A DNA stretch of 32,000 bases from an uncultured bacterium (GTDB lineage: Bacteria > GCA-001730085): assembly GCA_964565945.1 (NCBI GenBank), contig CAZMGY010000005.1, forward strand, positions 1-32,000, written 5' to 3'. Both the position numbers and the translations under genes were made by a program. Numbering within the stretch: the stretch's first letter is position 1; each line of letters begins with the position of its first letter. Shown here in pieces: positions 27 through 15,676 of this stretch. The notes below the pieces were generated by a model. It made no database searches and had not been told where the DNA came from. It saw only the letters and a list, made by a program, of their open reading frames with translations.

Positions 27-1724
27 ATGGAAAAACTGGTTGAAGAGTTTGAAAAACTAGAGCAAGATCAACGAGAATCTTGGTTTAAGGATGTGGTGCA
101 AAAATTCAATAACAACCAACCACCTTGTTACCTTGGCAAAGCGCGTGTTTTGTACGATATTCTCTTTGAGGATAGCTTGCTCTTTTCATCGGAAATGACA
201 TTTGCTGGAAATATGCAAGCATTTATTAAAGATTATGTTAAGAAAAAAGTTCAACGATTTATTAAGGATAATCGGGCCTTAATTAAGGCAGGAGCATCGG
301 TTGCGCTGTATGGGGCTTTTTTTGAATTTCGCAACAAAGAGCTTAGGTGGGAAAGAATTAAGAGCGAGTTGCCTTTAGAATACGTACCGTTTATTTTAGC
401 TATGAGTGCTAGGGAAGAAGTTAGGGATATTCAAGCTCAAGACAAGAGTTTGAATCGCCACAACTATGAAGCCTATTTTGCGGATATGAGTGAAGCTGGG
501 ATAGGCTACCTTGTGCACGATGCTTATGACGCTAGGGCTATGATTTCTGATGAAATGGCACTTGATATAGAAGCTAGTGCGTCAGAGAGGATTCAAGCCA
601 TGGAAAACTATATAAGGGGGGTGTGGTTCATGTTGTCTGGAACGTTTAAAGATGGAGATATGTGGCCCACGCCGTTTATTCGAGGCGTAGTGCATCATCG
701 GTCGTGGATACTGGGAGAATTTTATAATGATTTGCAGAATAATTTTTTTAAGATTCTTCGTAGTGCTGAAGCTAGTTTAGATAATATTAAATGGATAAAC
801 GAAATTGATGTTGAGGATTTGTTTCGAAGAACCTTGATGCAAAATGAGTATGATGTAAGGATTGACGGAGGATCCTTTAGGGTGAAGCACCGTTTCGAGA
901 AAAAAGATTTAAGGCTTCTTAAAACAAAGCTTGGCGAGAATATAAGAGACGATAAATATTTGTCTCTTCGATTTGTGTTTGATTTACTGCCACCAGAATT
1001 ACCCATTCAGAAAATGGTCAAGAGGCAGTTAACTACAGAACGGCGTGGATTGTGGACTACTTTATTTCCGTCTGGGGTGATGGAGGCTGAGGATCCTATT
1101 GAGGTGTCTGTGAACTATCTTGATGATTCGGAGACTTTTGAAACTACGGGACTGCTAAGTCGAATTAAGCCTAAGGATATTCAGGCGGTTCGTTTTGATA
1201 ATTTAGAAGATATGAGAAGAGCGATCATGAGTGCTCTAAATAATCCCCGCAAAGAGGTTTTGGATCGATTACGGGATATTCTTGTTTATGCTCGAATAAC
1301 AGATTTGAATAATTCTTTTGATCTAAAGGTCGAGAAAGGTGGTGACAAATATAGTGTGAATATGCTTCCTTTTGCCGCTCCTGGTGAAAAACTTTTCGAT
1401 TTAGTTGAAGTTCCCGTGATCTATCAAAATCAGTCCTTGGTGACCCTTCCTTTGCAAGGATTTTTTGATGTTAAAGAGATTCAAAATAGCTTGATTCAGC
1501 TGATATCACCAAGGTTCAGAGAGAAGGTTTCATTTGATCTTTATGCTGTTTGGAAGCCTGCGTTAGATGGTGAAGAGGAGGCAAGTGTAAAGGTGGAGTT
1601 TGTCGAAAAATTGACCAAAGATAATCAAGATATTCTTTGGGGATGTAGGTGGACTGGGCTGGAAATGAGACCTAAACCTGGAAGGTTTTTTTCATTGTCA
1701 AATGAGATACTTAAAGCAGCTTAG
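27..1724 (+). CDS. Hypothetical protein (565 aa from first ATG), no recognisable domain; 5' end uncertain
   Basis: Long uninterrupted ORF. The frame stays open from position 3 up to the ATG at 27, so the gene may begin left of the window. I recognise no Walker, nuclease, signal-peptide or other motif. Its TAG stop (1722-1724) overlaps the stop of the convergent gene. Confidence 0.6.
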   Translation: MEKLVEEFEKLEQDQRESWFKDVVQKFNNNQPPCYLGKARVLYDILFEDSLLFSSEMTFAGNMQAFIKDYVKKKVQRFIKDNRALIKAGASVALYGAFFEFRNKELRWERIKSELPLEYVPFILAMSAREEVRDIQAQDKSLNRHNYEAYFADMSEAGIGYLVHDAYDARAMISDEMALDIEASASERIQAMENYIRGVWFMLSGTFKDGDMWPTPFIRGVVHHRSWILGEFYNDLQNNFFKILRSAEASLDNIKWINEIDVEDLFRRTLMQNEYDVRIDGGSFRVKHRFEKKDLRLLKTKLGENIRDDKYLSLRFVFDLLPPELPIQKMVKRQLTTERRGLWTTLFPSGVMEAEDPIEVSVNYLDDSETFETTGLLSRIKPKDIQAVRFDNLEDMRRAIMSALNNPRKEVLDRLRDILVYARITDLNNSFDLKVEKGGDKYSVNMLPFAAPGEKLFDLVEVPVIYQNQSLVTLPLQGFFDVKEIQNSLIQLISPRFREKVSFDLYAVWKPALDGEEEASVKVEFVEKLTKDNQDILWGCRWTGLEMRPKPGRFFSLSNEILKAA

Positions 1725-3964
1725 TTGTTTTCTTGAGATTGAATGCACAGCTCGAACCAGGTATCAAAGGCGCTGGTTTGCATAAAGTTTGTCCAGATAA
1801 ATCCAGTGAGATAATTTTCAATCATGAGCATGCTGAGGCCTTGGTTAATGCCGATGTACTTATTCGAAAACCAACTTTGGCTTAGGTTGAAGGAATCTCT
1901 AAATCCATAAAAACCATAAAGATGATTTTTGTAAGTGTCGTAGAAGTGACGTAGCGCTGGTAAAGAAATCTCGGGAGTGAGAGGTAAGGAACCTATAGCT
2001 GCCGAGGGCGAGAGTGTGCCATCGTGCAAATTAACCCCAGGTTTGGCGCCATAACCTTTGAATCCCTGTGGGCCACCACTTGCGGTAAGGCCCCACGCAT
2101 TTTCGCCATAACTGCGGTATTCTTTTTGGTGGTCGATGCAAAATTGGCGGTTGGCATAGGTGGCGGCAATGGTGTTAGTCCAATGGTTGAGACCATGATC
2201 ATTGATGTTTTTAAAATCAATAAAGAGATGTGGGTATTGGTACACAAATAAACTGCCAGTTTGTGAATAGACCATAGTGTAATCTTTGTAATTACCAAGA
2301 GGGCGTTTGACGTTTATCCAGTATTGCTTGGAAATGGGGTGGGTTGGCGAACCAATTGCAAGGACATAGGCCAAAAGACTTTCGTTGTAGGTGTGCCAGT
2401 AATAGGGTAAAAAGCCTAATTCGGGTTTCCATCCCATGGCTAGGCTCGACTTGCCGTTGGTCATCCATTCCCAGTCGATTCGTTCGTAGAGTCGTTGCGC
2501 AATATCACTGATTTCGGAATTTTTAAAGAATTGCCCAGCGGTGAGGGCGCCAGCGATAAACAGGGCTGTGTCCATCGAGGAGATTTCGGAACTCCATACA
2601 CGTTGACCTGTTTTAAGATCGACAAAGTGATAGTAAAAACCATTTTTGTGTTCCACAGTATTTTCGATGGTTTTGAGAGCTTTAAGTGTCATTTTGAAGG
2701 CCTCGTCGTAGTCGAGCCAACCTTTGTCGCTAGCAATGCAATAGGAGACTAAGGCGAAGCCTAAAGCCGAAATACTGGCGGGAGACTTGGGAGTACTGTT
2801 GTCTTTGACCAGGCCATTGTCTTTATTGATTTCGCCAGTGAAGTATTTAAAGGTATCATATTCGATTTTTTTCAAGAAATCGATACGGGTGTCACGCGAT
2901 GTTTTGGAGGCCTCTTGCACAACTTCACTTTGTTCGTTGTTGTGATAGAGATCGTAGTCGATCAGTTTAACACTTGTGATACTGGCGATTTCGGTGGGTA
3001 GTAGTGTTGTTTCTGATCCGTCAATAGTATTGAGGTTGACAATATCGTAATCGGTTTGGCTGAGTTTACCAATAAGGGTATTGGTGTTGTTGAGGGTTAC
3101 AATGTCGAGCGTATCATTTTCGTTGAGTTTGGCATAGTGTTGTGTGCCCAAAATGTGAATGCCGTAGTTCTTGTTTTGAAAGTTGAGCAATTGGTTGCGC
3201 GTGCTGCGTAGTTCCTGATTAAGATTTTCGATATTATCTTTGAGAAGCAAATTGCTTTTTTTAAGCTGATTGATCAGAGCTTCGATCTTTTCGTCAGTTT
3301 GATTGAGTGCAATGGTAGTGATTTCTTTTTTAAGTTTTGTCTGTGTTTTTTTCTCGCTTTCCAATTGACCTTTAAGAGTAATTTCTTTTTTCTTGAGTTG
3401 ACTCAGACTTTCTTGAGTTTTTACCTGAGATTGTTGCAGTTCGGAGATATTACCTTCGAGCGTTTTGTTCTGCTGAGAGGCATCCCAGTAATAAAAAGAG
3501 ATATAAGCACCAAAAGTGAGTAGCAGAAGAATGAGAATGGCTAATTCATAAGGTTTGCGCCGCAGTGAGTTGACATAGGCACAGAGGCGCTTGCGATCAT
3601 GTTCGATAATATCTTCGTATTGCACTCCAATCAAGACCGATTCGATGCCTTGATCTTTAATCACTTTATACCAAGCTTTTTGGGCAAAAGCTGCGATCGG
3701 GTGGCGCGAAAATGGGGGTGTGATCATAAGAGCCATACGGTATTGATTGCTATCCAAATAATCGTAAAAAGATTTTTGTGGAGAGTAGAGCTGTAGGCAA
3801 AGGCCTCCTTTGGAGATATCCCGCGTAAAACATTGGAGGGTCTTGCTTGCTGTTTGACTGGACTTTTTATCGACAAATCGTATCTCCACTGGAAAAACAG
3901 TGTTGACGCGTAGATACGTTCTTTGTTCATGTTCGGCAGGACGTTTTTTTTTGAATAAACCCAT
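1721..3964 (-). CDS. PilZ domain / single TM helix / coiled coil / GH144-like (DUF3131, putative beta-1,2-glucanase) fusion protein
   Basis: PilZ motifs RTYLR (RxxxR, 3908-3922) and DISKGG (DxSxxG, 3803-3820). Hydrophobic helix PYELAILILLLLTFGAYISFYYW (about 3484-3552). Next comes about 130 aa of heptad-like K/E/Q/L-rich sequence. The C-terminal ~390 aa carry strings typical of the GH144/DUF3131 family (NGFYYHFVDLKTGQ, YGFYGFRDSFN, GINQGLSMLMIENY). I prefer the ATG at 3964 (MGLFKKKRP): AAGGA lies 11 nt upstream and a TTGACA-17-CATAAT promoter precedes it. The track start at 4153 is a TTG followed by 63 aa of low-quality sequence. Confidence 0.8.
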   Translation of the reverse strand: MGLFKKKRPAEHEQRTYLRVNTVFPVEIRFVDKKSSQTASKTLQCFTRDISKGGLCLQLYSPQKSFYDYLDSNQYRMALMITPPFSRHPIAAFAQKAWYKVIKDQGIESVLIGVQYEDIIEHDRKRLCAYVNSLRRKPYELAILILLLLTFGAYISFYYWDASQQNKTLEGNISELQQSQVKTQESLSQLKKKEITLKGQLESEKKTQTKLKKEITTIALNQTDEKIEALINQLKKSNLLLKDNIENLNQELRSTRNQLLNFQNKNYGIHILGTQHYAKLNENDTLDIVTLNNTNTLIGKLSQTDYDIVNLNTIDGSETTLLPTEIASITSVKLIDYDLYHNNEQSEVVQEASKTSRDTRIDFLKKIEYDTFKYFTGEINKDNGLVKDNSTPKSPASISALGFALVSYCIASDKGWLDYDEAFKMTLKALKTIENTVEHKNGFYYHFVDLKTGQRVWSSEISSMDTALFIAGALTAGQFFKNSEISDIAQRLYERIDWEWMTNGKSSLAMGWKPELGFLPYYWHTYNESLLAYVLAIGSPTHPISKQYWINVKRPLGNYKDYTMVYSQTGSLFVYQYPHLFIDFKNINDHGLNHWTNTIAATYANRQFCIDHQKEYRSYGENAWGLTASGGPQGFKGYGAKPGVNLHDGTLSPSAAIGSLPLTPEISLPALRHFYDTYKNHLYGFYGFRDSFNLSQSWFSNKYIGINQGLSMLMIENYLTGFIWTNFMQTSAFDTWFELCIQSQENN

Positions 3965-3997
3965 GGAATACAAAATCCTTTTCAAAACACGTCCATT

Positions 3998-4026
3998 ATT
4001 ATGGTCAAGACCTGGGAAATTGTCAA
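3998..4026 (-). promoter_or_regulatory. Sigma70-type promoter for the PilZ-glucanase gene
   Basis: On the minus strand: TTGACA (4021-4026), exactly 17 nt spacer, CATAAT (3998-4003). It lies about 35 nt upstream of the ATG at 3964. Confidence 0.5.
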
Positions 4027-4175
4027 TATATAGCATTAAAGATAAAGATTTCTTCAAAAAATTTGACAGAAAGTTTTTATTTTTCGTACGCTTAACATAT
4101 AATGATCCCATATTGGGGGAAATGGGAATGCTCTCATATGAATTATCTATCAAAAATTGGGGTTGTTCTAGTTAG

Positions 4176-7100
4176 ATGAAAAAGTCTTATGTGTTTTTAC
4201 TATTAATAGGTTTTGTTGCTCAATCCGCGATTCTGTTTCCTTTCGAACGTGAACAAGATATTCCACGCATTGTTCAAAATGAGCGTCAGCTTATGTTGCA
4301 TTTTATGCAAGGTAAGGGGTTTTTTAAAAATAGCAATTACGAACAGGCGAGAGAAGAATTTTTGCGTGTTATTCAAATCAATTCTGACTATCGCCCGGCC
4401 TATGAGTATTTAGAGAGAATTCAGGATATAGCGATCCAAAAATCGCAAGAGGAACAGGAACGTCGTGCCTATATGAATCGTGCCTTGGATATGATGGATA
4501 CGGTTAAAGAAAAATTACGTTTACCTTCAGATGAAGACTTGTTTTACCAACTCACTGAGTCGGAGCAAAAAAAGCTAGATGGTTATGTGGGTGACAATGA
4601 GTTTAGCAAAATGATCGAAGAGCAGCGTTTAACGGTGTTAAATAAAGCTAAGCAAATCAAAAAAGACATTGATAAAGTTCTTGAGGAAAGACAAAAATCC
4701 GATGTTATGCGTAATGTGGCTGGGCGGGACGAGGCTTTTATGGTTCAAGGGTTTGAGCCTTACACACGCGAAAATGCGACGATGAAAGAAAACGTAGAAA
4801 GGGTGGCCGAAGCGCAAGAAGAGATGGATGCCAATTTCTTTTTTAATCGACGTCAAAAAATCGAAAGCTTTTATCAACGTGGGGTTCAGGCCTACAAACT
4901 CAGAGATTATCCTTTGGCTAAGGATATGTTTGAAAAAGTTCTTAAGTTGGAGCCAGGCTATAGGTATGCACAAGATTATCACGAAAGTAGCACGTCTCAG
5001 CTAATGATTAAAGAAATTCAAGAGCGTAAAAATCGTAAATTGCTCAAAAGGGCGCGTAGAAATCGTAAGCCAAGGGTGCAGGAACCCATTGAAATTGTTT
5101 CTCAAAACCGGGCTCTTGAAGAAAGTTCTGCCGTGGCTGAGCAGATGAGTCAAGCTTTTGAAGAACGCAAGGGAGCCTTATTGACTGGACATCGCGATGA
5201 GCTGTTGGCTACAGGTATTAAAGCGATGGAGATGAAAGACTACAACAAAGCGATGGAGATTTTTGAACAAATCCTGCGTTATGACCCCAAAGACCGCAGT
5301 GCAGAAAAGTATCGTCAGAAAATTCTTGTTCATATCAGTGAGAAGGAAGAAGCTGTTTTAGAAGCTTTAAGTCAGGTTCAAAATATGGCATTTGAGGAGT
5401 CTATGTCTCCAGCGACGCCTAAGGTTGACTTGGACCCCAATGCGGATTTTCAAGCTAATGAAGCTTTGGTTGATGTTGTTGCCAAACAACGTCGTGTGGT
5501 TGAACTTTATGAGAAAGGAAAGCATTTTTATCGTCAAAAAAATTATACGGCTGCATTGCAGCATTTTCGAGAGTTGGAATTGCTTGACCCTGCACACCGT
5601 TATGTTAGAAAGTATATGCATCGGTGTGAGCATCTTCTCAATATAGGACGTAAGGAAGTACCTCGCTTAGATCCTGCCAAACTTTACGCTCAAGGTGTGA
5701 AGCATTTCAAAAATAAGGAGTATCGTTTGGCGGCTCGAAGATTCTGGGATGTCCTTAAATTGAATCCACAACATCGCAAAGCCCAAAAAATGTTAAAGAA
5801 AGCTCTTTCTCCACTAGATATGGGGATTAAGACTTTATTGTCCGAAATTTCTGCAGCTGAAGAGGTGCGTTCAAAACCTCAAGCCATTGAAGCTATGCCC
5901 GCACCGAAGTTACCCACAATTACAGGTGAAGAAGATCCTGAAACATTGTATGAAAAAGCTAAGCAGCTTTATCGTGCTGGAAAATACAAGCAAGTGATTC
6001 CTTTATTTGAAACTCTTGTGTCTTTATTGCCGAAGGATCCTCATGTGGAGCGCTTTTTAGAATTGAGTCGCAAAAAATTTGTTAAAGCAGGTGGTCAAGT
6101 AAAGGAAGTTGTGCCAGAGCTGGTTGCGAAATTCAAGTCGCAGGCAACTTCCGATCTGTCATTGGATCCTTCTAATAACCTTTCTGCAGCTAATGCTATT
6201 TCCCCAAAATTTACAGTGCATTACGAAAAAGGGAAAGCTTTGTTTCGTCAAGGTCAATACAAAGAAGCTATTCTGGAGTTTGAAAAAGCGGTTAAGTTGG
6301 TGCCCAATCATCGTTATGCGCCGCGTTATCTCCAACGTAGTAAAGAAAAAATGCAGGCTCAGGGCAAAGTGGCTGTTGCTTCTGCTCAAGAGATGTCCCC
6401 TCAAGACAAAGAATTCAAAACTAATTATGAAGAAGGCAAGTATTTGTATCGTCAAGGTCAATATGCTCAGGCGGAACCTTTTTTCGAAAAAGCTGTGGAA
6501 CTTAAACCGAATCATCGCTATGCCTCACGTTATTTAGAGCGTAACAAAGAAAAGCAGGCCGAAAAACAAGCGATTTCTCAACCTCTTGCATCCCCATCTC
6601 TTCCTGCAGCAGGCGTTGCGACACCACAAGCGGAAAAACAGTCTGTGAATGAAGAAACTTTTAACCGCTTTTATGAAGAGGGCAAGCGTTTGTATCGTCA
6701 AGGTCAATATGCTCAGGCGGGACCTTTTTTCGAAAAAGCTGTGGAACTTAAACCGAATCATCGCTATGCCTCACGTTATTTAGAGCGTAGCAAAGAAAAG
6801 CAGGCCGAAAAACAAGCGATTTCTCAACCTGTTGCATCCCCATCTCCTCCTACACCAGCCATTGCGATACCACAAGCGGAAAAACAATCTGTGAATGAAG
6901 AAACTTTTAACCGTTTTTATGAAGAGGGCAAGCGTTTATATCGTCAGGGAAACTATTTGGAAGCGATTGGTCAGTTTGAGGAAGCCGTTAAACTCAATTT
7001 CAATCATCGTTATGCGCCACGTTATCTTAAACGCAGTCGGGAAAAATGGGCCGAACGTCAAGAGGCTCAAAAAGAGCGTTTGGCCACAAGTGAAACGCAA

Positions 7101-10100
7101 GCCCCAGCTCCTGCTCAACAAGTTGTTACCGAGGAACAAAAAAATTCAAAAAAACTTTATGAGCAAGGCACGACGATGTATCGCGAGGGGCGTTACGCCG
7201 AAGCGTCCGATATTTTTGAACAAGTGGTGGCTCTTGAGCCTAATCATCTCTACGCGGGAGGTTATTTACTTCGTTCCAAAGAAAAAGTTTCTGCAGCTGA
7301 GTCGCGAGCTCAAGGAGCCTCGAATCCTATTGTTGTAACCGCTCTTACCAAATCTAGCCCTGCGTCTTCAGATGTCGCTGAAGATTCTGCCCGTTTGTAT
7401 GAACAAGGAAAAACAGATTTTCGTCAAGAAAATTACAAAGGGGCTATAGAAAAATTCAAGAGAGTGGTACTGCTTGACCCTAATCATCGCTATGTCAGGC
7501 GTTATTTGAAAAAATCGGAAGAGCGTTTTGCTGAGCAAAAAAAGAATGATGTTCAAACGGCTCTTTACCAAGATAAGCAGACAGATGGGGTTGCCTTAGG
7601 TCAAAAAGAGCGCTTCACTGCTGGAGAAGGTGTTTTGGAGTTTAGGGTTAATCGTAATGTAGGCATTATTGAGTTAAGTCAGGAAGCTGCAGAAATTTTA
7701 GAGTTTCGTTCTACGCAAAATAAATTTGTTCGGGTTGTTGGAAAAGAAGACTTTGAGGCAGAAGAAGATCTGATGATGTTTGAACGAGAGACGTCTATGG
7801 AAGATTATGTTGAAGAGCCTGGTGAGCATGTCGATATTGTTTTGGCCGAAGGCGATAAAAAGGTAGCTATGAAAGAAGCCAGAAAGCGCGTTAGGGCTGT
7901 TGATGTTCCTGTGGTTGCTAAACGTGCTAAACAAAAAGTTCTGAAAAAATCGAACCGTAAGAGTCGTAAGGCTTATTTTAGCGGTCTTAAGCTTTATAAG
8001 CGTTGCAACTACAAGAGGGCGGCCATTGAATTTGACAAGGCTGTGGCTTTTGATGAGGACAATTCCCTTGCTCAAAGATATTTGGTTTTGTCGTCACAAG
8101 AACTTAAGAAAAAAGGTATCACATTTAAGTCGGAATATTTGCCAGAGAATTTATCTAAGGTGGTTCAGTTTAAACAACCTTCTGTCGAAGAGGTTAAGTC
8201 AGTTTTTGAAGACGCTAAGCCTATTATGGAGAGGGTGCCTATATCCACCGACGGATCGCAAGATAATTATGAAGTTGTGAAAACCGTTCAGATGACAGAT
8301 CCTGCGGTTTTAATTAAACGTAAGCAGCAGCGTGAAAATGTGAAGAAAATATACACCAAAGGTGTCGAGGCTTACGAAGCTAAAGACTATGAAACGGCTC
8401 TTGTTCTATTTGAGCAATCCAGTGTTATGGCGCCTAAGAATAAGAGCGTGCTTAAAGCTCTAAGGTTAACGAAACAGAAACTTAGTGCTGCTGCCAAAGC
8501 CAAACAGATGGCTACCCAAAGAGAAGAGGAGAAAAAAGTTTCTCAAAAGATAGATGTGATTTATGTTCGGGCGAAAGAACTCTTTCGGGAGAAAAAATAT
8601 CAAGAGGCCTATGTGATTTTTAAAGATGTGATTGCTCAGGATCCTAAGCATTATTTTGCTCAAAAATATTTTGTTAAATCTAGGGAAGAATTAATTGCTT
8701 TAGGCGTTGATCCAGAAAAAAAATCAATAGCCATGCATCAAAAAGCTTTATTGACGGAAGAAGCGGATATGGCGTCACGCTTGTTCGAAAAGGGTAAACG
8801 CAACTTCGAAAAAAAGTTGTACGAAAGAGCGGTTAAAGAGTTTTATGTGGTTAAGTTGATGCAACCTGATCATCGTCACACGTGCAAATATTTGAATCGA
8901 AGCGTGAAACATATTGAACTTAGCCGTTGGATGGATATGAAAGATAATTTGGATGAGAATTTCAAAAAAAGTCCCTACTATGCCACCCAAAGGGAGGGAT
9001 ATGCTCTGAGTCGGAGTGATCAAAAAAATATCGACTCTTTCATCACCAAAGGCTTAAGACATTATCGTAGGCAAGAGTTTGAGAAAGCTTTGCTGTTTTT
9101 TGATAAAGCGAGAGATATAGATCCTTATTATGGTGAGTTGTCGATTTGGAAGACTAATGCAAGATATTTGTTAGATATATTGGAACATAAAATCAATGGT
9201 GAAATGGAGCAGGTTAAGGTTAAGTCCGAATTTGTTCTTAAAACAGATCCCGACAATGCATTAGCGAAGAAATATGCCACTTTAGGTGAGTTGGAGCTTC
9301 AGTTTTATAAGGATGAGCATAAAGTGTTAAATCAATTTCAAGAAGAGTTGCGTCAGCTTAAAAACAAAAGAACGAGGCAAGAAAAATTAGTTCGAGCGTT
9401 TCAAGAAGCTAAAATTTTACATGAAAAAGGACGTTATATGGAAGCTTTAAATGGGTTTGAAGACGTTTTGGCACAGGATCCTACGAATACTTACGCGATG
9501 ACATTTGCGAAATATGCGCGTCAGAGAATTCAGGAAAAGAAGAAGCTAGAGTTAGAAATGCGTAAAGTCGAAGAGTTGCAACGAGCTGTTGAAATTCAAC
9601 AGGAAGTCAAAGTGTATGATTACTATGAAAGAGTGGAGCAGGCACAGGCAGGTATGGCGATTGTGGCCACAGGTGAAATTCCTATAAAGCAGCCTCTGGA
9701 CACAAACCCTGATGCCGTAGAGAAAATGACAGCATCAGAAAAAGCGCAGGCCTTTGTCGATAAAGGAAAAAGTGCTTACTTGCGTGGAGAATATGATAAG
9801 TCAGTTGCTTTGCTAGAAAAAGCAATTGAGATGGATGATGGAGCTAATCGTGACGAAATTCAGATATATTTGGAGCAATCAATTAAAAAACGTGAATGTC
9901 AAAAAGTTCCTTTTATATCTCCACGCGAACTGACCGAAGAAGAAAAGCAAATTATGTTGCGCAATGAATTGATGAGAAAAGGACGTTCTTTGTTCTACCG
10001 AAATAAGTATGAGTTGGCGATCACTCAATTTGAAAAAGTTTTGGGCGTCGAACCTGGATTTGAGATGGCTCAGAAGTACATGGAGTTGGTGAATAAGAAA

Positions 10101-11060
10101 CTGGAAATTAAGCGCAAGCAAGAATTGGAGCGTTTGCAACAGTCTGTTTATGCTGATGAAATGTCGACGATGTTACAGCAAGAGAAGAGGATTGTTATGC
10201 TTTTGGAAAAAGGCAAAGAGTTTTTTGTTCAGGATCAATATCGTTTGGCACGTGAGCATTTTGAAAAAGTGCTCGAACTTCAAGAAGATCATGTGATTGC
10301 ACGCGATTATTTGTATTTAACTGAGGAAAAGTTAGTTAAACGAGCAATGATGGAGGAAAAACACTTAGCAGAGATGCAGTTGTTAAAAATTCGCGAAGAG
10401 CGTGAGGAACGTATTCACTTGGCTAAACAGGCTAAAGAAAAAGTGCGCCTCCAAGAATTAAAAAAGCAAGTGCAAGAAATCGATAGGTTGTTTGGTGAAG
10501 GTAAGGTGGCTTACGAAAAAGGGGAGGTTCAGGTGGCTATCGTTTATTTTGAAAAAATTCTCCAAATTAATTCTAAACATAGACTTGCTTTTGAATATTT
10601 GAATTTGGCAAGACAAAGCTTGCGAACTTTGCAAAGGAACGAATTGAAACAGGTTAATCGTGAAAAACAAGAAGTCTTTCAAAAAGAAGCGGAAAAGTAC
10701 ACAAATGTCCAATTGGCTTACGATAAAGGCCTTATTTATTACAATCGGGGTGAATACGGTCGTGCTTTAGCTTTGTTTAAACGGGTGTGGATGTTAGATC
10801 AAACATTTCCTTATTTGACAAAAGTCCAGGAATATATAGAAAATATCTCTCAACGAAAAATGTTGGCGAACACATCCTCTCCGAATCAGAATTATTTAGC
10901 AGAGTTGTACGAGAATGGTAAGGATAAGTTTATTGCGGGTCAATGGCAAGAGGCTTTTTCGACTTTTCAAAGTGTTTCTAATATTGATGCTCATTACAAA
11001 TCTGTTCAAATGTATCTGCAAGTGGCCCAAGGTGAAATTCAGAAGGCCAGAGCGGCCTAA
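4176..11060 (+). CDS. Giant secreted TPR-like repeat protein (2294 aa, about 24 repeat units)
   Basis: N-terminal signal peptide MKKSYVFLLLIGFVAQSA. By eye, about 24 copies of a ~45-aa unit with consensus [LF]YExGKxxYRxxxYxxAxxxFExVLxLxPxHRYAxxYLxRSxEK. Each unit is one TPR hairpin plus a third helix. Units are joined by K/E/Q-rich or P/A/S-rich linkers. A non-repeat insert sits at about 7546-7975. Confidence 0.85.
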   Translation: MKKSYVFLLLIGFVAQSAILFPFEREQDIPRIVQNERQLMLHFMQGKGFFKNSNYEQAREEFLRVIQINSDYRPAYEYLERIQDIAIQKSQEEQERRAYMNRALDMMDTVKEKLRLPSDEDLFYQLTESEQKKLDGYVGDNEFSKMIEEQRLTVLNKAKQIKKDIDKVLEERQKSDVMRNVAGRDEAFMVQGFEPYTRENATMKENVERVAEAQEEMDANFFFNRRQKIESFYQRGVQAYKLRDYPLAKDMFEKVLKLEPGYRYAQDYHESSTSQLMIKEIQERKNRKLLKRARRNRKPRVQEPIEIVSQNRALEESSAVAEQMSQAFEERKGALLTGHRDELLATGIKAMEMKDYNKAMEIFEQILRYDPKDRSAEKYRQKILVHISEKEEAVLEALSQVQNMAFEESMSPATPKVDLDPNADFQANEALVDVVAKQRRVVELYEKGKHFYRQKNYTAALQHFRELELLDPAHRYVRKYMHRCEHLLNIGRKEVPRLDPAKLYAQGVKHFKNKEYRLAARRFWDVLKLNPQHRKAQKMLKKALSPLDMGIKTLLSEISAAEEVRSKPQAIEAMPAPKLPTITGEEDPETLYEKAKQLYRAGKYKQVIPLFETLVSLLPKDPHVERFLELSRKKFVKAGGQVKEVVPELVAKFKSQATSDLSLDPSNNLSAANAISPKFTVHYEKGKALFRQGQYKEAILEFEKAVKLVPNHRYAPRYLQRSKEKMQAQGKVAVASAQEMSPQDKEFKTNYEEGKYLYRQGQYAQAEPFFEKAVELKPNHRYASRYLERNKEKQAEKQAISQPLASPSLPAAGVATPQAEKQSVNEETFNRFYEEGKRLYRQGQYAQAGPFFEKAVELKPNHRYASRYLERSKEKQAEKQAISQPVASPSPPTPAIAIPQAEKQSVNEETFNRFYEEGKRLYRQGNYLEAIGQFEEAVKLNFNHRYAPRYLKRSREKWAERQEAQKERLATSETQAPAPAQQVVTEEQKNSKKLYEQGTTMYREGRYAEASDIFEQVVALEPNHLYAGGYLLRSKEKVSAAESRAQGASNPIVVTALTKSSPASSDVAEDSARLYEQGKTDFRQENYKGAIEKFKRVVLLDPNHRYVRRYLKKSEERFAEQKKNDVQTALYQDKQTDGVALGQKERFTAGEGVLEFRVNRNVGIIELSQEAAEILEFRSTQNKFVRVVGKEDFEAEEDLMMFERETSMEDYVEEPGEHVDIVLAEGDKKVAMKEARKRVRAVDVPVVAKRAKQKVLKKSNRKSRKAYFSGLKLYKRCNYKRAAIEFDKAVAFDEDNSLAQRYLVLSSQELKKKGITFKSEYLPENLSKVVQFKQPSVEEVKSVFEDAKPIMERVPISTDGSQDNYEVVKTVQMTDPAVLIKRKQQRENVKKIYTKGVEAYEAKDYETALVLFEQSSVMAPKNKSVLKALRLTKQKLSAAAKAKQMATQREEEKKVSQKIDVIYVRAKELFREKKYQEAYVIFKDVIAQDPKHYFAQKYFVKSREELIALGVDPEKKSIAMHQKALLTEEADMASRLFEKGKRNFEKKLYERAVKEFYVVKLMQPDHRHTCKYLNRSVKHIELSRWMDMKDNLDENFKKSPYYATQREGYALSRSDQKNIDSFITKGLRHYRRQEFEKALLFFDKARDIDPYYGELSIWKTNARYLLDILEHKINGEMEQVKVKSEFVLKTDPDNALAKKYATLGELELQFYKDEHKVLNQFQEELRQLKNKRTRQEKLVRAFQEAKILHEKGRYMEALNGFEDVLAQDPTNTYAMTFAKYARQRIQEKKKLELEMRKVEELQRAVEIQQEVKVYDYYERVEQAQAGMAIVATGEIPIKQPLDTNPDAVEKMTASEKAQAFVDKGKSAYLRGEYDKSVALLEKAIEMDDGANRDEIQIYLEQSIKKRECQKVPFISPRELTEEEKQIMLRNELMRKGRSLFYRNKYELAITQFEKVLGVEPGFEMAQKYMELVNKKLEIKRKQELERLQQSVYADEMSTMLQQEKRIVMLLEKGKEFFVQDQYRLAREHFEKVLELQEDHVIARDYLYLTEEKLVKRAMMEEKHLAEMQLLKIREEREERIHLAKQAKEKVRLQELKKQVQEIDRLFGEGKVAYEKGEVQVAIVYFEKILQINSKHRLAFEYLNLARQSLRTLQRNELKQVNREKQEVFQKEAEKYTNVQLAYDKGLIYYNRGEYGRALALFKRVWMLDQTFPYLTKVQEYIENISQRKMLANTSSPNQNYLAELYENGKDKFIAGQWQEAFSTFQSVSNIDAHYKSVQMYLQVAQGEIQKARAA
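6426..6950 (+). repeat. In-frame 246-bp (82-aa) tandem repeat, about 2.1 copies, roughly 95% identical
   Basis: TATGAAGA(A/G)GGCAAG recurs at 6426, 6672 and 6918, exactly 246 bp apart. Copies 1 and 2 differ at only a handful of positions, mostly in the P/A/S linker. Copy 3 diverges after about 6950. Confidence 0.9.
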
Positions 11061-11077
11061 GCAATTAAGGAGGAGGA

Positions 11078-13345
11078 GTGAAAAAAATCATTGTTTGGGG
11101 AGTACCCCTTCTTTGTGTACCTTCTATAGCTGTGTTTGCACAAAATGTTATAACAACAGGTGTTGTTGATATTTTCCAAAAACAGTCTATAGTCTCTTCC
11201 GAGTTTAAAAAAGCGGAGGACTTTTTTGAGGAGGGCAAAAGGCTTTATAACGAGAAATCTTATGGCTTTGCGATCAAAATGTTTCAAAAAGCTTTAGCCT
11301 TAGACCTTACGCATACGACAGCTCAGAAATACATTCAGTTATGCGAGCAAAATATTGCTTGGCAAGAGCAAGAGTCTCTGGCTTTGTTAGATATAAAGCG
11401 TAAGGAAGAGGAATTAAATCGTCATAAAAAATTAGAATCTTGGTTGGAGAGTGGGATTCACCATTACAAATTGAAGAAGTATGATCTTGCGCTGATTGAG
11501 TTTGAAAAAGTTCTTAAATTTAAGCCCAATCACACCGTGGCGAAAAAATATATAGATGAAACTAAAAGAAAACTCAATGTTTTGGGATTGCAGCAGATAT
11601 CCGAGATTTCGAAACGTGAACGCCTGGATCAAATGATTGCCAAAGAAAAGAAAATTGAACAATTGGGGCAAAGAGGGATTGATTTGGTTAAACAACGTCA
11701 ATTTGAATTGGCCTTGAACACTTTTAAAGATCTTGTGATGTTAGATCCTCATAATACTTGGGCGCAGGAGTATATCGACCTTTGTGAACAATGTTTAGAT
11801 TGGGAAACCAAAGAAAAAAAAATGCAGCTAGAGCTCGATCGTAAATATGTTTTGAACGAAGAGCGACAACGCACGGAGTTGTTGCAAAAGGCGCAAGCTT
11901 TTTTTGAGGAAGGTAAAGGGGCTTTTAAAGAGAAACGGTACCAAGAGGCGCTTGAGTTATTCCAAAAATCATTGGATTTTAATGTTGAGCATGAGTTGGC
12001 TCACAACTACCATAAGTTAACCTCCAAAATTATAGAAGAAAAACACTTGAGTGACTTAAGATACTTTAATCAAGTTAAAGAAAGTGCCACACGTGAGATA
12101 CATTTGGATCAGATGATGCAAACACATCTTGAGAACGAAAAGATGCTTGAACGCGGTCAAAAGCTTTTTAATGAACAAAAATTTTATCCGGCCTTAGAGT
12201 TCTTTCGTAATGTGGCCAAACGTTATTCCGAAAATAAAATGGTTCACGATTATATTCGTTTATGTGAGAAATCGATTGAATATAACCGTAAAAAAATTAA
12301 GGCCCAAGCTGATATGGCTCAAGTTTTGCTAAGGTACAAAAATATTGAGTATAATTTGAACCAAGGAAAAATGATGCACGAACAGGGTAAGTACGAGGTG
12401 AGCACCGAGCTTATGAAAAAGGTGCTTCAAGATGTACCTAATCATGCCTTAGCACTTAAATGCATTGAGCTGAACTATAAGTGCCTGGAGCTAGATAAAG
12501 AGCGTGAGAAAGTTCAGCTAGAGCAAAAAGAGTGGATGTTGCAAGAAAAAGAAAAAATGCTCGAAGATCAAAAGAATAGCGGCTTTATTGAACAGAATAT
12601 TAGCAAAGGTATGGCCTTTTTCGAATCTAAGCAATACCATCTAGCTTCGCAACGGTTTGAGGTTGTGTTAAGTAAAGTGCCTGACCATCGTGTGGCTCAA
12701 GAGTATTTTAAGTTATGTGAACGTTACTTGGTGATTAAAGAGAATAAGCATCTAGAAAAAATTGCCCAAGTTAAAAATAGTCTAGAGCAAAAAAGTTTAG
12801 CCTATTTTAATGATGGTAAAGAATTGTTTGCTCAAAACAAATATCGGGAAGCTATTCAGAAGTTTTCTAAAGCATGGGAGTTAAGTCCAGATGCCGCTAT
12901 AATGACGGAGCTTCAGACATATGTCGAGAAATCTTTTAAGCAACTTGAGCTAATGAAACAAAGGAAAAAAAAGGTGGAGAATGAGAAAAAACAACGCCAA
13001 TACACGGATCTTTACCGTCAAGGTGTGGTGTTGTTTGAAACAAAGAATTACCAGGGAGCTATCGCTTATTTTCGCAAAGCCTTGGCTCTTTCTCCCAAAA
13101 TGAAAGACGGAGCTCTCAAGGGCTACATCGAGAAGTCGTACAAAGGGATTGATGAAGAGAAAAAACATGAACAACGCAAAAAGCTAGCGATCAAATATCG
13201 ACAAGGTATGGATTCTTATCGTTCAGAAAAATGGGAAGACGCTTTGAAATACTTTAGCGAAGTTCACATTGTTGATCCTAAATTCGAAGATGTACGGCTT
13301 TATCTTAAGCTTGCTCAGAAGCAAATAGAAGCCTCTCAAGAGTAG
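11078..13345 (+). CDS. Secreted TPR-like repeat protein, paralog of the giant upstream gene (755 aa, about 10 units)
   Basis: GTG start preceded by AAGGAGGAGGA (11067-11077), 17 nt after the upstream stop, so probably one operon. Signal peptide MKKIIVWGVPLLCVPSIAVFA. The repeat unit is the same, but the third helix often reads Y[IF]xLCExx (YIQLCEQNI, YIDLCEQCL, YIRLCEKSI, YFKLCERYL). Confidence 0.85.
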   Translation: MKKIIVWGVPLLCVPSIAVFAQNVITTGVVDIFQKQSIVSSEFKKAEDFFEEGKRLYNEKSYGFAIKMFQKALALDLTHTTAQKYIQLCEQNIAWQEQESLALLDIKRKEEELNRHKKLESWLESGIHHYKLKKYDLALIEFEKVLKFKPNHTVAKKYIDETKRKLNVLGLQQISEISKRERLDQMIAKEKKIEQLGQRGIDLVKQRQFELALNTFKDLVMLDPHNTWAQEYIDLCEQCLDWETKEKKMQLELDRKYVLNEERQRTELLQKAQAFFEEGKGAFKEKRYQEALELFQKSLDFNVEHELAHNYHKLTSKIIEEKHLSDLRYFNQVKESATREIHLDQMMQTHLENEKMLERGQKLFNEQKFYPALEFFRNVAKRYSENKMVHDYIRLCEKSIEYNRKKIKAQADMAQVLLRYKNIEYNLNQGKMMHEQGKYEVSTELMKKVLQDVPNHALALKCIELNYKCLELDKEREKVQLEQKEWMLQEKEKMLEDQKNSGFIEQNISKGMAFFESKQYHLASQRFEVVLSKVPDHRVAQEYFKLCERYLVIKENKHLEKIAQVKNSLEQKSLAYFNDGKELFAQNKYREAIQKFSKAWELSPDAAIMTELQTYVEKSFKQLELMKQRKKKVENEKKQRQYTDLYRQGVVLFETKNYQGAIAYFRKALALSPKMKDGALKGYIEKSYKGIDEEKKHEQRKKLAIKYRQGMDSYRSEKWEDALKYFSEVHIVDPKFEDVRLYLKLAQKQIEASQE

Positions 13346-13726: not shown

Positions 13727-13756
13727 TTGACTATTTAAGGGCTTCTTAACTATAAT
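13727..13756 (+). promoter_or_regulatory. Sigma70-type promoter of the tRNA cluster
   Basis: TTGACT (13727-13732), 18 nt spacer, TATAAT (13751-13756). It ends 17 nt before the tRNA-Pro 5' end. Confidence 0.5.
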
Positions 13757-13773: not shown

Positions 13774-13848
13774 CGGGGCGTAGCGCAGCTTGGTTAGCGC
13801 GCCTGCCTTGGGAGCAGGAGGTCTCCAGTTCGAATCTGGGCGCCCCGA
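13774..13848 (+). tRNA. tRNA-Pro (anticodon TGG)
   Basis: Hand-folded cloverleaf. Acceptor CGGGGCG/CGCCCCG, D arm GCGC-AGCTTGGTTA-GCGC, anticodon arm CCTGC-CTTGGGA-GCAGG, T arm TCCAG-TTCGAAT-CTGGG. 75 nt, CCA not encoded. Confidence 0.9.
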
Positions 13849-13914
13849 TAAAAATTTTTTGCGTGTGCAATAACACAAATAAGGCCGAGGCTTTAGTTAG
13901 GTATTTTGTGTTGC

Positions 13915-13954
13915 TAGCTTAGCTGGATAGAGCAATGGATTTCTAATCCGTAGG
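13915..13954 (+). pseudogene. Partial copy of tRNA-Arg(TCT), D arm and anticodon arm only
   Basis: TAGCTTAGCTGGATAGAGCAATGGATTTCTAATCCGTAGG matches positions 8 to about 47 of the intact tRNA-Arg 96 nt downstream with 4 mismatches in 40 nt. No T arm (no GGTTCGAATCC) and no complementary acceptor 3' strand follow. Confidence 0.6.
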
Positions 13955-14010
13955 ATTCTTTAGAGGAACGAAGCCGTAAGATAAGCACTGCCTAGGAAGA
14001 GAAAGATTTT

Positions 14011-14084
14011 GCGCCAGTAGCTCAGCTGGATAGAGCAACGGGTTTCTAATCCGTAAGTCCTAGGTTCGAATCCTAGCTGGCGTA
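14011..14084 (+). tRNA. tRNA-Arg (anticodon TCT)
   Basis: Hand-folded cloverleaf. Acceptor GCGCCAG/CTGGCGT, D arm GCTC-AGCTGGATA-GAGC, anticodon arm ACGGG-TTTCTAA-TCCGT, T arm CTAGG-TTCGAAT-CCTAG. 74 nt. Confidence 0.9.
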
Positions 14085-14107
14085 CTATAGAATTAAAAGT
14101 GATTTGT

Positions 14108-14185
14108 GGTGGGTGTAGCTCAGCTGGTTAGAGTGCTAGATTGTGGCTCTAGTTGTCGCGGGTTCGAATCCCGTCATCCACCCCA
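14108..14185 (+). tRNA. tRNA-His (anticodon GTG), with encoded G-1 and CCA
   Basis: Extra 5' G (14108) opposite C73. Acceptor GTGGGTG/CATCCAC, anticodon arm CTAGA-TTGTGGC-TCTAG, T arm GCGGG-TTCGAAT-CCCGT. CCA at 14183-14185. Confidence 0.9.
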
Positions 14186-14332
14186 TTTTACATTTTCCGA
14201 GTACAAATCTTCATAATACCCTTGGATATATTTATAATTTAAAAATGAGATTTACTTGTTGTGAAAATATAAAAAAATCTTCTTCGCAGTGTATTAAAAG
14301 GATTTTGATGTTAAAATGTCTAGCCATTGTCC

Positions 14333-14602
14333 TTATTGTTTAATATTTCGTTCTACTTTCTTTTTCCAATAATCCTTATTAGAGGCGGGCATTCTACAAT
14401 GTAAAGAGCAACCATGCCAAAAACAAGAATCAATAAAAACAACTAATTTATATTTTTTTATCGCCAAATCTGCCTTGCCCAACAAGTTTTTAACATTACC
14501 TCTAAACCGCAAACCATTTTTCCAAAGATTTTTTAATATTTCATTTTCTAATTTAGTATGAGAAGAACTTATTGACTGCATTCGCTTTCTTCTAATATCT
14601 TT
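14333..14602 (-). pseudogene. vsr: Truncated very-short-patch repair endonuclease (Vsr) remnant
   Basis: The translation KDIRRKRMQSISSSHTKLE...LGKADLAIKKYKLVVFIDSCFWHGCSLHC...NKDYWKKKVERNIKQ* follows the Vsr family pattern (RSxNMxxI..TKPE ... PD ... FVxGCFWHxH ... FWxxKxxxNxxRD). It stops before the C-terminal GWxVxxxWE block. An in-frame TAA (14603-14605) removes the native N-terminus. No partner cytosine methyltransferase is present. Confidence 0.7.
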
Positions 14603-14646
14603 TTATTGATGTTAAAGGCAATAAAGGCAAAGTTTTTGATTTAATC

Positions 14647-15620: not shown

Positions 15621-15676
15621 AGAGCAACAGAATTAAGCCAGCAAGATTACTAGCTGTCTAGGCGTTTTGGTGTCAA

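What the first reader, a model, noticed from the sequence alone, without database searches (positions are those of the whole stretch)
1721..13345. Candidate c-di-GMP-gated envelope glycan module: a membrane-anchored PilZ-glucanase divergent from two secreted TPR-bead giants
Seen: a PilZ/TM/coiled-coil/GH144-like gene shares a 211-bp divergent promoter region with a probable two-gene operon. That operon encodes signal-peptide proteins of 2294 and 755 aa made almost entirely of TPR-like units. Established: synthase-dependent exopolysaccharide systems each combine a c-di-GMP receptor, a periplasmic hydrolase or lyase, and a TPR scaffold. Examples are BcsA-PilZ/BcsZ/BcsC, Alg44-PilZ/AlgL/AlgK and PelD/PelA/PelB. 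Inference: the same three functional classes occur here but are wired differently. The PilZ domain is fused across the membrane directly to the hydrolase. No glycosyltransferase or beta-barrel porin lies in the window. This could be an undescribed second-messenger-controlled periplasmic glucan remodelling or scaffold system.
Basis: partly seen in the sequence, partly recalled or inferred. Interest (0 to 1): 0.72.

Follow-up and report, generated by a model that had tools for sequence, protein, structure and literature searches.

The report
PilZ-anchored periplasmic beta-1,2-glucanase beside TPR operon
One gene encodes a sugar-chain-cutting enzyme tethered outside the inner membrane to an internal receptor for the signal molecule c-di-GMP, a design that recurs on several enzyme types and seems undescribed, but its link to the two giant repeat-protein genes next door is not supported.

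Summary
Gene 1721-3964(-) encodes a 747-aa protein. It has an N-terminal PilZ domain with intact RxxxR and DxSxxG motifs, one transmembrane helix, a helical stalk, a small beta domain and a GH144 endo-beta-1,2-glucanase domain with its catalytic Glu. It lies 211 bp from, and divergent to, a two-gene operon for signal-peptide proteins of 2294 and 755 aa. These carry about 25 and 10 consensus-like 46-aa TPR beads.

The "single c-di-GMP-gated glycan module" reading is only weakly supported. The adjacency is kept in three independent relatives. It is lost in the PVC bacterium from Bugula neritina, which has both genes on separate contigs. It is also absent around a more distant PilZ-GH144 and around distant TPR giants. 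The junction is no better conserved than the meaningless GH144-gatB junction. No synthase, porin or GGDEF/EAL gene lies nearby.

The unexpected result concerns gene 1. Its PilZ-TM-stalk module recurs in at least 157 protein clusters, named so far in Omnitrophota and one PVC-group bacterium. It is fused to different periplasmic carbohydrate-active domains: the beta-1,2-glucanase clan, GH26, GH2/GH5-like and GH42-like barrels, and a new six-hairpin barrel. I found no description of this. It suggests inside-out c-di-GMP control of periplasmic glycan hydrolysis, which is untested.

The parts
1721..3964 (-). Gene for a 747-aa PilZ / TM / helical stalk / beta domain / GH144 protein, stop codon included
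   Evidence: ORF; start fixed by orthologue N-termini and an upstream promoter-like site; Pfam; PDB sequence hits 8xul at 2.6e-69 and 5gzh at 2.7e-48; AF2 mean pLDDT 88
3572..3928 (-). Cytoplasmic PilZ domain (residues 13-131). The c-di-GMP motifs are R15xxxR19 (3908-3922) and D49xS51xxG54 (3803-3820).
   Evidence: Pfam PilZ 21.0 bits, below the 22.5 cut-off; motifs invariant in orthologues; beta barrel at residues 18-119 with pLDDT above 94; Foldseek hits to MotI (5vx6) and MrkH (5kec) at about 3e-4
3485..3553 (-). Single transmembrane helix (residues 138-160), preceded by RRK, which implies N-in / C-out topology
   Evidence: It is the only Kyte-Doolittle segment of at least 1.6 in the protein. 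It lies inside one continuous predicted helix spanning residues 121-219.
3185..3484 (-). Periplasmic helical stalk (residues 161-260): two long helices with a break at 220-225
   Evidence: AF2 secondary structure; the same arrangement appears in the P0036 model
2966..3166 (-). Small all-beta domain (residues 267-333) of unknown function. It is shared with some relatives that carry other GH domains.
   Evidence: AF2 strands at 267-333 with pLDDT 82-92; profile matches extend to about position 335 in P0045, P0046 and P0065
1727..2890 (-). Periplasmic GH144 (alpha/alpha)6 endo-beta-1,2-glucanase domain (residues 359-746). Key residues: E528 (general acid), D465 (candidate base), F573.
   Evidence: PF10091 at 6e-69; Foldseek 8xul TMt 0.82, rmsd 1.9 A; residue mapping from the HMMER alignment against roles given in PMC12102758; conservation
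3965..4175 (.). 211-bp divergent intergenic region, with a promoter-like site for the GH144 gene at 4026-3998(-)
   Evidence: A stretch TTGACAG...TCGTACRCTTA is shared with L002; its function is unknown.
4176..11060 (+). Gene for a 2294-aa exported protein with about 25 TPR beads of 46 aa (22 full-length units) separated by linkers of 13-148 aa. The signal peptide is roughly residues 1-24.
   Evidence: The best PDB matches are designed consensus TPRs.
6425..7025 (+). 246-bp tandem duplication (2.1-2.4 copies, 87-94% identical) inside the giant gene. Each copy is one bead plus its linker.
   Evidence: protein repeats at residues 751-832 and 833-914
11078..13345 (+). Gene for a 755-aa exported protein with 10 TPR beads. 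It has a GTG start preceded by the Shine-Dalgarno sequence AAGGAGGAGGA and lies 17 bp after the giant gene.
   Evidence: It is colinear with the L007 orthologue (47% identity, 2 gaps over 755 aa).

Best explanation
The interval holds two units that are probably independent.

Unit 1 (1721-3964, minus strand) encodes an inner-membrane protein. Its N-terminal PilZ domain sits in the cytoplasm. Its GH144 endo-beta-1,2-glucanase domain is held in the periplasm on a helical stalk. It belongs to a larger and apparently undescribed family. In that family the same PilZ / single-TM / helical-stalk module is fused to interchangeable periplasmic carbohydrate-active domains.

Proposed mechanism:
- c-di-GMP binds at R15xxxR19 and D49xSxxG54.
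- The PilZ C-terminal helix is predicted to be continuous with the TM helix and the stalk. Ligand-induced re-packing or dimerisation of PilZ could therefore be relayed through this rigid helix. That would change the oligomeric state, position or accessibility of the periplasmic enzyme.
- This is inside-out signalling, comparable in logic to LapD and in topology to Alg44.
- The likely substrate is the cell's own periplasmic beta-1,2-glucan (an OPG-like or cyclic glucan), so c-di-GMP would tune the size or amount of the envelope glucan.

Unit 2 (4176-13345, plus strand) is a two-gene operon for Sec-exported beads-on-a-string TPR proteins, probably a periplasmic or surface scaffold. Its adjacency to unit 1 is best explained as inherited gene order in a narrow clade.

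Shown here: domain identities, motifs, predicted topology, modularity of the family, and the synteny pattern. Inferred: c-di-GMP binding, the signal relay, the substrate in vivo, and the role of the TPR proteins.
For: GH144 identity:
- PF10091 scores 6e-69.
- XcSGL/8xul matches at 2.6e-69 by sequence and at TMt 0.82, rmsd 1.9 A by fold.
- The general-acid Glu (NE motif, E528), F573 and the acidic residue equivalent to CpSGL E142 (D465) are conserved. Their roles are taken from PMC12102758.
- The nearest GH144-only relatives (48-52% identity) carry signal peptides, which fits a periplasmic location.

PilZ:
- Both binding motifs are invariant in orthologues.
- Among 154 N-module relatives, 103 have both canonical motifs and 42 more have RxxxR plus an N[IV]GKGG variant.
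- The barrel fold is predicted with pLDDT above 94 and matches MotI and MrkH.

Topology: one TM helix follows RRK, and one continuous helix spans residues 121-219.

Family:
- A profile of the N-terminal module finds 294 cluster representatives at E<=1e-3 and 157 at E<=1e-10.
- Their C-terminal domains are: the GH144/DUF3131 clan (4), GH2_C-like TIM barrels (5), GH26 (2), GH42-like (1), and an unannotated domain (62).
- The unannotated domain folds as an (alpha/alpha)6 barrel resembling AGE epimerases, GH76 and MmpH.
- In Omnitrophota locus L005 such a gene lies between a GH2-like gene, a GH116 gene and a GH161 phosphorylase gene.

Independence of the TPR operon. The operon itself is conserved.
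Against: - There are no biochemical data: c-di-GMP binding, glucanase activity and any coupling between them are untested.
- PilZ scores just below the Pfam gathering cut-off for this protein.
- How a single TM helix could gate a distal (alpha/alpha)6 enzyme is unknown. The PilZ domain might only localise the enzyme or recruit a partner.
- No beta-1,2-glucan synthase or GGDEF/EAL gene could be looked for, because the rest of the genome is not available here.
- The Bugula orthologue has Asn at the candidate-base position. Hydrolysis may therefore not be the conserved function in every member.
- The GH144/TPR pair does persist in three genomes that share only 63-65% (GH144) and 42-65% (TPR giant; 42-43% over the long alignments) protein identity with the window, so a functional link is not excluded.
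Confidence: 0.6

Rival explanations
1. The PilZ-glucanase and the two TPR-bead proteins form one c-di-GMP-controlled periplasmic glucan remodelling or scaffold system, co-regulated from the shared 211-bp divergent region.
For: The divergent pairing is kept in the window, L002 and L003/L007, although the other flank of the GH144 gene differs (a 565-aa ORF here, gatB there). All three products are predicted to be periplasmic or exported. TPR scaffolds accompany hydrolases in the Bcs, Alg and Pel systems (established knowledge). A short stretch of the intergenic region is shared between the window and L002.
Against: The Bugula bacterium keeps both genes but on separate contigs with unrelated neighbours. 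The more distant PilZ-GH144 P0043 has DeoC upstream. The distant TPR giants P0040 and P0041 have no GH144 neighbour. Other members of the PilZ-GH family have no TPR giants nearby. The junction is no better conserved than the GH144-gatB junction. No synthase or porin lies in any of the loci read.
Confidence: 0.17
2. The PilZ domain is an anchor or protein-interaction domain and not a c-di-GMP switch. On this view the protein is simply a membrane-tethered housekeeping beta-1,2-glucanase for osmoregulated glucan turnover, with PilZ binding a partner or nothing.
For: PilZ falls below the Pfam cut-off (21.0 against 22.5 bits). About a third of family members have Gly, Ala or Cys in place of the motif Ser. 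Non-binding PilZ domains that act as adaptors are known, for example Xanthomonas PilZ with FimX (10.1101/814665).
Against: In this clade both canonical binding motifs are invariant across proteins that share only 43-65% identity. Such conservation is not expected for a mere anchor. A signal peptide or a plain TM helix would suffice for tethering, as in the GH144-only relatives.
Confidence: 0.15
3. The TPR-bead proteins are host- or surface-interaction factors (adhesins or secreted repeat proteins) of an invertebrate-associated PVC symbiont and are unrelated to glucan metabolism. This is compatible with the best explanation and only specifies unit 2 further.
For: The only named relative comes from the bryozoan Bugula neritina. 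The family is confined to a small deep clade. A recent 246-bp in-frame bead duplication and differing bead-region lengths between orthologues (2071-2915 aa) resemble the copy-number turnover typical of surface proteins.
Against: No secretion-system gene is nearby, and no adhesin or host-mimic domain is detected. The 755-aa partner is length-invariant (2 gaps over 755 aa), which suggests a defined structural role rather than a variable surface one.
Confidence: 0.25

Closest known systems
GH144 endo-beta-1,2-glucanases (CpSGL from Chitinophaga pinensis, 5gzh; XcSGL/XCC2207 from Xanthomonas campestris, 8xul)
   Same: The catalytic domain is the same: PF10091, an (alpha/alpha)6 barrel, 34% identity and TMt 0.82 to 8xul, with the general-acid Glu and the clan-defining Phe conserved.
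   Different: The characterised enzymes are soluble proteins without a PilZ domain, TM helix or stalk. Here the domain is the C-terminal half of a single-pass membrane protein with a cytoplasmic c-di-GMP receptor domain.
Alg44 (alginate co-polymerase): PilZ / single TM / periplasmic domain
   Same: The topology is the same: an N-terminal cytoplasmic PilZ domain, one TM helix and a periplasmic output domain. It is a precedent for c-di-GMP information crossing the membrane through one helix (my own knowledge, plus 10.1101/814665).
   Different: The periplasmic part of Alg44 is a membrane-fusion-protein-like domain that acts with the Alg8 synthase inside an alginate operon. Here the periplasmic part is a glycoside hydrolase, and no synthase is encoded nearby.
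LapD/LapG inside-out c-di-GMP signalling
   Same: The logic is the same: a cytoplasmic c-di-GMP receptor controls a periplasmic hydrolytic activity.
   Different: LapD uses degenerate GGDEF-EAL domains and a HAMP relay, and it sequesters a separate protease. Here the receptor and the enzyme are one polypeptide, and the receptor is a PilZ domain.
Synthase-dependent exopolysaccharide systems (BcsA-PilZ/BcsZ/BcsC, Alg44/AlgL/AlgK, PelD/PelA/PelB)
   Same: The same three functional classes are encoded side by side: a c-di-GMP receptor, a periplasmic glycan-cleaving enzyme and TPR proteins.
   Different: There is no synthase and no beta-barrel porin. The receptor is on the hydrolase and not on the synthase or co-polymerase. 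The TPR units are isolated beads rather than a contiguous solenoid fused to or paired with a porin. The gene association is not conserved beyond close relatives.
Consensus and designed TPR proteins (CTPR3, 1na0; 8bu0), and the TPR regions of BamD and of the Amuc_1098-type PVC secretin
   Same: The bead sequence is close to the TPR consensus. There are weak NCBIfam hits to BamD (TIGR03302) and to the N-terminal region of Amuc_1098.
   Different: Each bead is a single TPR plus one extra helix, separated from the next bead by a linker of 13-148 aa. There are no contiguous arrays of three or more repeats. No natural solved protein matches specifically.

Membership tests
GH144 (CAZy; endo-beta-1,2-glucanase) | Sequence membership: Pfam PF10091 above the gathering score and significant similarity to characterised GH144 enzymes | tested here: met
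   232.4 bits against a cut-off of 27; 8xul at 2.6e-69 and 5gzh at 2.7e-48
GH144 (CAZy; endo-beta-1,2-glucanase) | (alpha/alpha)6-barrel fold superimposable on CpSGL and XcSGL | tested here: met
   AF2 pLDDT is mostly above 90 for residues 359-746. Foldseek gives 8xul TMt 0.82 at rmsd 1.9 A and 5gzk TMt 0.84.
GH144 (CAZy; endo-beta-1,2-glucanase) | Clan-defining residues: the general-acid Glu (XcSGL E239 / CpSGL E211), Phe (F286), Tyr (Y367), and an acidic residue at the CpSGL E142 position | tested here: met
   E528, F573 and D465 align and are conserved (roles from PMC12102758). Y638 aligns with Y367 in the HMMER alignment, but that column is ambiguous in the MAFFT alignment.
GH144 (CAZy; endo-beta-1,2-glucanase) | Hydrolysis specific for beta-1,2-glucan | not testable with these tools
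   This needs an enzyme assay.
PilZ c-di-GMP receptor domain (PF07238) | Pfam model above the gathering score | tested here: not met
   21.0 bits against 22.5. Family relatives score up to 44.5 bits.
PilZ c-di-GMP receptor domain (PF07238) | RxxxR and [D/N]xSxxG binding motifs at the canonical spacing | tested here: met
   R15-R19 and D49-G54 lie 34 residues apart, which is the modal spacing in the family. They are invariant in orthologues.
PilZ c-di-GMP receptor domain (PF07238) | Six-stranded beta barrel followed by a C-terminal helix | tested here: met
   AF2 strands at 18-119 followed by a helix from residue 121; Foldseek hits to MotI (5vx6) and MrkH (5kec, 5ked) at 2.5e-4 to 8e-4
PilZ c-di-GMP receptor domain (PF07238) | Binds c-di-GMP | not testable with these tools
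   This needs ITC, DRaCALA or a similar assay.
Synthase-dependent exopolysaccharide secretion system (Bcs/Alg/Pel type) | An inner-membrane glycosyltransferase synthase encoded in the cluster | tested here: not met
   No GT gene is found in the 32-kb window or in the called genes of L001, L002, L007 and L009.
Synthase-dependent exopolysaccharide secretion system (Bcs/Alg/Pel type) | An outer-membrane beta-barrel porin fused to or paired with the TPR protein | tested here: not met
   Only TPR families hit the two proteins. The non-TPR segment at about residues 1120-1260 of the giant is too short for a porin.
Synthase-dependent exopolysaccharide secretion system (Bcs/Alg/Pel type) | The receptor, hydrolase and TPR genes stay together across relatives | tested here: not met
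   They are separated in the Bugula PVC bacterium, and the association is absent in more distant relatives of either partner.
TPR repeat proteins | 34-residue helix-turn-helix repeats matching the TPR models | tested here: met
   TPR_2 scores 2.1e-86 and 8.2e-38. The proteins carry about 25 and 10 beads. The best PDB matches are consensus TPRs.

The most novel reading that the evidence does not exclude
The three genes do form one system. On this reading the exported TPR-bead proteins assemble into a periplasmic or envelope lattice that holds beta-1,2-glucan. The PilZ-anchored glucanase trims that glucan on command from cytoplasmic c-di-GMP. This would be a second-messenger-controlled envelope glucan scaffold with no dedicated synthase or porin in the cluster. 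It would use a portable PilZ-TM-stalk 'inside-out' module that evolution has also attached to at least four other glycanase classes.
Probability: 0.12. Interest if true: 0.85.

Novelty: new variant of a known kind. Interest (0 to 1): 0.55.

Why it matters
c-di-GMP is known to switch polysaccharide synthesis on, through PilZ domains on synthases or co-polymerases such as BcsA and Alg44. It is also known to control a periplasmic protease indirectly through LapD.

A receptor domain fused directly, across the membrane, to a glycoside hydrolase would add the opposite lever. That lever is second-messenger control of glycan breakdown or trimming in the periplasm.

The same N-terminal module sits on several unrelated glycanase folds in at least 157 protein clusters. 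That points to a general, portable signalling device and not a one-off fusion. It is also directly testable with recombinant proteins.

For beta-1,2-glucans, whose turnover in the periplasm is poorly understood, it gives a candidate regulated degradative enzyme.

The result also cautions against reading divergent adjacency in a narrow clade as evidence for a functional system.

Tried and rejected
- The longer TTG-initiated ORF (to 4153, 810 aa) was rejected. Orthologues start at the ATG at 3964, and a promoter-like site lies inside the extension.
- I asked whether the 2915-aa Bugula giant is a fusion of the giant and the 755-aa protein. BLASTP gave only diffuse 21-24% repeat-to-repeat matches, so this is undecidable.
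- A sequence search of the P0036-type C-terminal domain against the PDB found nothing. Its fold had to be predicted instead.
- The genome contigs and metagenome-contig scans with the N-terminal alignment added no new close relatives of the window clade, only Omnitrophota-type fusions.
GltX places it nearest the PVC bacterium from Bugula (66% identity), with everything outside the small clade at 50% or below.
- Literature searches for PilZ plus glycoside hydrolase, GH144 or Omnitrophota found no description of such fusions. Absence from this library is not proof of novelty.
- Intergenic alignment for shared regulatory motifs gave one short stretch shared between the window and L002, which is not interpretable. 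It did show that L003 and L007 are the same organism.
- Promoter and terminator scans overall found no more sites than shuffled sequence would give.

Full report
**1. The observation**

The window has four large ORFs in the interval.

The minus-strand ORF 1721-4153 is best started at the ATG at 3964, giving 747 aa. Four orthologues begin at the equivalent Met. The best sigma-70-like match of the region, TTGACA-17-CATAAT at 4026-3998(-), lies just upstream of that ATG and inside the longer reading frame.

Pfam finds PF10091, the GH144 'Glycoamylase' domain, at 6e-69 for residues 520-730. It finds a PilZ match at 21.0 bits, just under the 22.5-bit cut-off.

The two plus-strand ORFs are 2294 aa (4176-11060) and 755 aa (11078-13345). 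Each has a single N-terminal hydrophobic segment typical of a signal peptide and strong TPR scores. They are 17 bp apart, with AAGGAGGAGGA before the GTG start.

**2. Gene 1 in detail**

The AF2 model has mean pLDDT 88. It shows, in order:
- a beta barrel at residues 18-119;
- one uninterrupted helix at 121-219, which contains the only hydrophobic segment of the protein (138-160, preceded by RRK);
- a break, then a second helix at 226-260;
- a small all-beta domain at 267-333;
- a disordered linker at 343-356;
- an (alpha/alpha)6 barrel at 359-746.

Foldseek places the barrel on the Xanthomonas beta-1,2-glucanase XcSGL (8xul; TMt 0.82, rmsd 1.9 A, 34% identity) and on CpSGL (5gzk/5gzh). The N-terminal barrel matches the PilZ proteins MotI and MrkH.

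The paper that characterised XcSGL defines three clan residues: E239 (general acid), F286 and Y367. It names the acidic residue equivalent to CpSGL E142 as the most plausible base (PMC12102758). In the HMMER alignment these correspond to E528, F573, Y638 and D465 of the window protein. E528, F573 and D465 are conserved in the fused orthologues (P0043 has Tyr at 573), with one more exception: the Bugula orthologue has Asn at 465.

The PilZ motifs R15xxxR19 and D49-I-S-K-G-G54 are invariant.

The closest GH144-only relatives (48-52% identity) have signal peptides, which fits a periplasmic location for this domain. The predicted topology is therefore PilZ inside and glucanase outside.

**3. Relatives and synteny**

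Only four full-length relatives were found by the word-indexed search, plus one more distant one (P0043, 43% identity) by the exhaustive profile search.

Contexts:
- L002 has a divergent TPR giant at 43% identity.
- L003 has the giant's N-terminus at 65% identity.
- L007 has the full trio, next to the PGI-surA-pdxA-rsmA-gatCAB genes. L003 and L007 have identical intergenic DNA and are one organism.
- In the PVC group bacterium from Bugula neritina, the GH144 gene is divergent from a 118-aa PilZ gene and PGI. Its 2915-aa TPR giant lies on another contig among unrelated genes.
- P0043 has DeoC upstream.
- The distant giants P0040 and P0041 have no GH144 neighbour. P0041 keeps a downstream 545-aa TPR gene.

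The GH144-gatB junction serves as a neutral comparator. It is kept in L002 and L003/L007 but broken in the window and in Bugula. The GH144-TPR junction is kept in the window, L002 and L003/L007 and broken in Bugula. The two junctions are about equally stable. Adjacency in this small clade therefore gives no evidence of selection. GltX identities within the clade are 78, 66 and 61%, with everything else at 50% or below.

The TPR pair is conserved as an operon. The 755-aa protein is colinear with its L007 orthologue, with only two gaps.

**4. The unexpected part**

A profile of the N-terminal 362 residues was searched against 1.84 billion cluster representatives. It found 294 proteins at E<=1e-3 and 157 at E<=1e-10. 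Two loci carry Omnitrophota labels; most of the other proteins have no taxon label.

I classified the C-terminal domains of the best 150:

| C-terminal domain | Number |
|---|---|
| Uncharacterised domain, P0036 type | 62 |
| GH2_C-like TIM barrel | 5 |
| Beta-1,2-glucanase clan (PF10091 or DUF3131) | 4 |
| GH26 | 2 |
| GH42-like | 1 |
| Short sequences or fragments | the rest |

The P0036-type protein was modelled at pLDDT 89.6. It has the same PilZ / long-helix / helix arrangement, followed by an (alpha/alpha)6 barrel. That barrel resembles AGE-family epimerases, GH76 mannanases and MmpH.

In Omnitrophota locus L005 such a gene sits between a GH2-like gene, a GH116 gene and a GH161 phosphorylase (9qqk, 2e-235).

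Of 154 family members, 103 carry both canonical c-di-GMP motifs. A further 42 carry RxxxR plus an N[IV]GKGG variant.

The PilZ-TM-stalk unit is therefore a portable module attached to diverse periplasmic carbohydrate-active domains.

The main review of PilZ architectures does not mention hydrolase or transmembrane fusions (10.1101/814665). Full-text searches found no paper describing them.

**5. The TPR proteins**

An iterated HMM finds about 25 beads in the giant (22 of them full-length) and 10 in the smaller protein. The consensus is roughly YeeGKrLYrqgqYaeAixxFEkAvxLxPnHryAxrYLxrskek. This is one TPR plus one extra helix.

Linkers are 13-148 aa long. In the middle of the giant they are Pro/Ala/Gln-rich. 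Elsewhere they are charged and helical-looking.

The best PDB matches are designed consensus TPRs, and no natural protein matches specifically.

A 246-bp tandem duplication at 87-94% identity shows recent bead gain.

No porin-like segment is present. Homologues are restricted to five proteins. The function of these proteins remains inferred: an exported scaffold or surface protein.

**6. Mechanism and comparison with known systems**

The best-supported reading is a c-di-GMP receptor and a periplasmic endo-beta-1,2-glucanase in one polypeptide. The continuous helix linking the PilZ C-terminal helix, the TM segment and the stalk is the plausible relay.

In topology the protein is closest to Alg44. 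In logic it is closest to LapD/LapG. Its catalytic domain is that of CpSGL and XcSGL.

It is not a member of a synthase-dependent exopolysaccharide system. The synthase, the porin and conserved clustering were all tested and not met.

**7. Verdict**

The anatomy is correct. The three-gene-module interpretation is weakly supported; I put it at about 0.15.

The PilZ-glycanase fusion is a new variant of known kinds. It belongs to a sizeable family for which I found no description. All functional steps are untested, which limits the score.

Noticed in passing
window 27305-27676 (+): A stand-alone 123-aa PilZ protein (Pfam 34.9 bits, above the cut-off). The Bugula relative also has a 118-aa PilZ gene directly upstream of its PilZ-GH144 gene (L001 9033-9389). 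The lineage therefore has several PilZ receptors, which implies c-di-GMP signalling, although no GGDEF/EAL gene is in the window.
   Followed up: partly
window 13774-15766: Downstream of the TPR operon lie tRNA-Pro, tRNA-Arg and tRNA-His (13774-14185, plus strand). A near-consensus promoter-like site sits at 13727-13756. Next come a C-terminal fragment of a DDE transposase (14647-15069) and tRNA-Ser (15677-15766, minus strand). This may be a rearrangement hot spot.
   Followed up: partly
window 27-1724 (+) and 18676-20874 (-): Two large ORFs of 565 and 732 aa have no Pfam or NCBIfam match. The 565-aa ORF converges on the GH144 gene, and their 3' ends overlap by 4 bp. In relatives this position is occupied by gatB.
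   Followed up: no
whole window: GC skew is positive in every 1-kb bin (0.02 to 0.29) regardless of gene orientation. The cumulative skew rises monotonically to 6.2. This is an unusually strong and uniform strand bias.
   Followed up: no
L001 10001-12241 (protein P0004): The Bugula orthologue has Asn where the window protein has D465. That position is equivalent to CpSGL E142, whose mutation abolishes activity. This orthologue, the one separated from the TPR genes, may be catalytically impaired.
   Followed up: partly
L006 6063-8474 and L013 75-1973: In two independent loci the P0036-type PilZ-six-hairpin gene is preceded by a DUF3857-transglutaminase-DUF3858 gene. This may be a conserved partner for that subfamily.
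   Followed up: partly
L005 132-10995: An Omnitrophota cluster contains a GH2-like TIM-barrel gene, a PilZ-six-hairpin fusion gene, a 1509-aa GH116 protein with a long C-terminal extension, and a GH161 phosphorylase. It looks like a beta-glucan utilisation locus built around a PilZ-anchored enzyme.
   Followed up: partly
window 4063-4095 and L002 (reverse complement of 4823-5053): A stretch TTGACAG...TTTTTCGTAC(G/A)CTTA in the divergent intergenic region is shared between the window and L002 but not with L003/L007. Its meaning is unknown; it could be a promoter or an operator.
   Followed up: no
window 28818-32000 (+): A long ORF runs off the window end and encodes a GlnE/GlnD-type adenylyl- or uridylyl-transferase (PF03710 at 7e-80). 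The rest of the window is housekeeping: def, fmt, rsmB, DAHP synthase, an ABC-transporter ATPase and an MlaD-domain protein, radA, ispF and gltX.
   Followed up: yes
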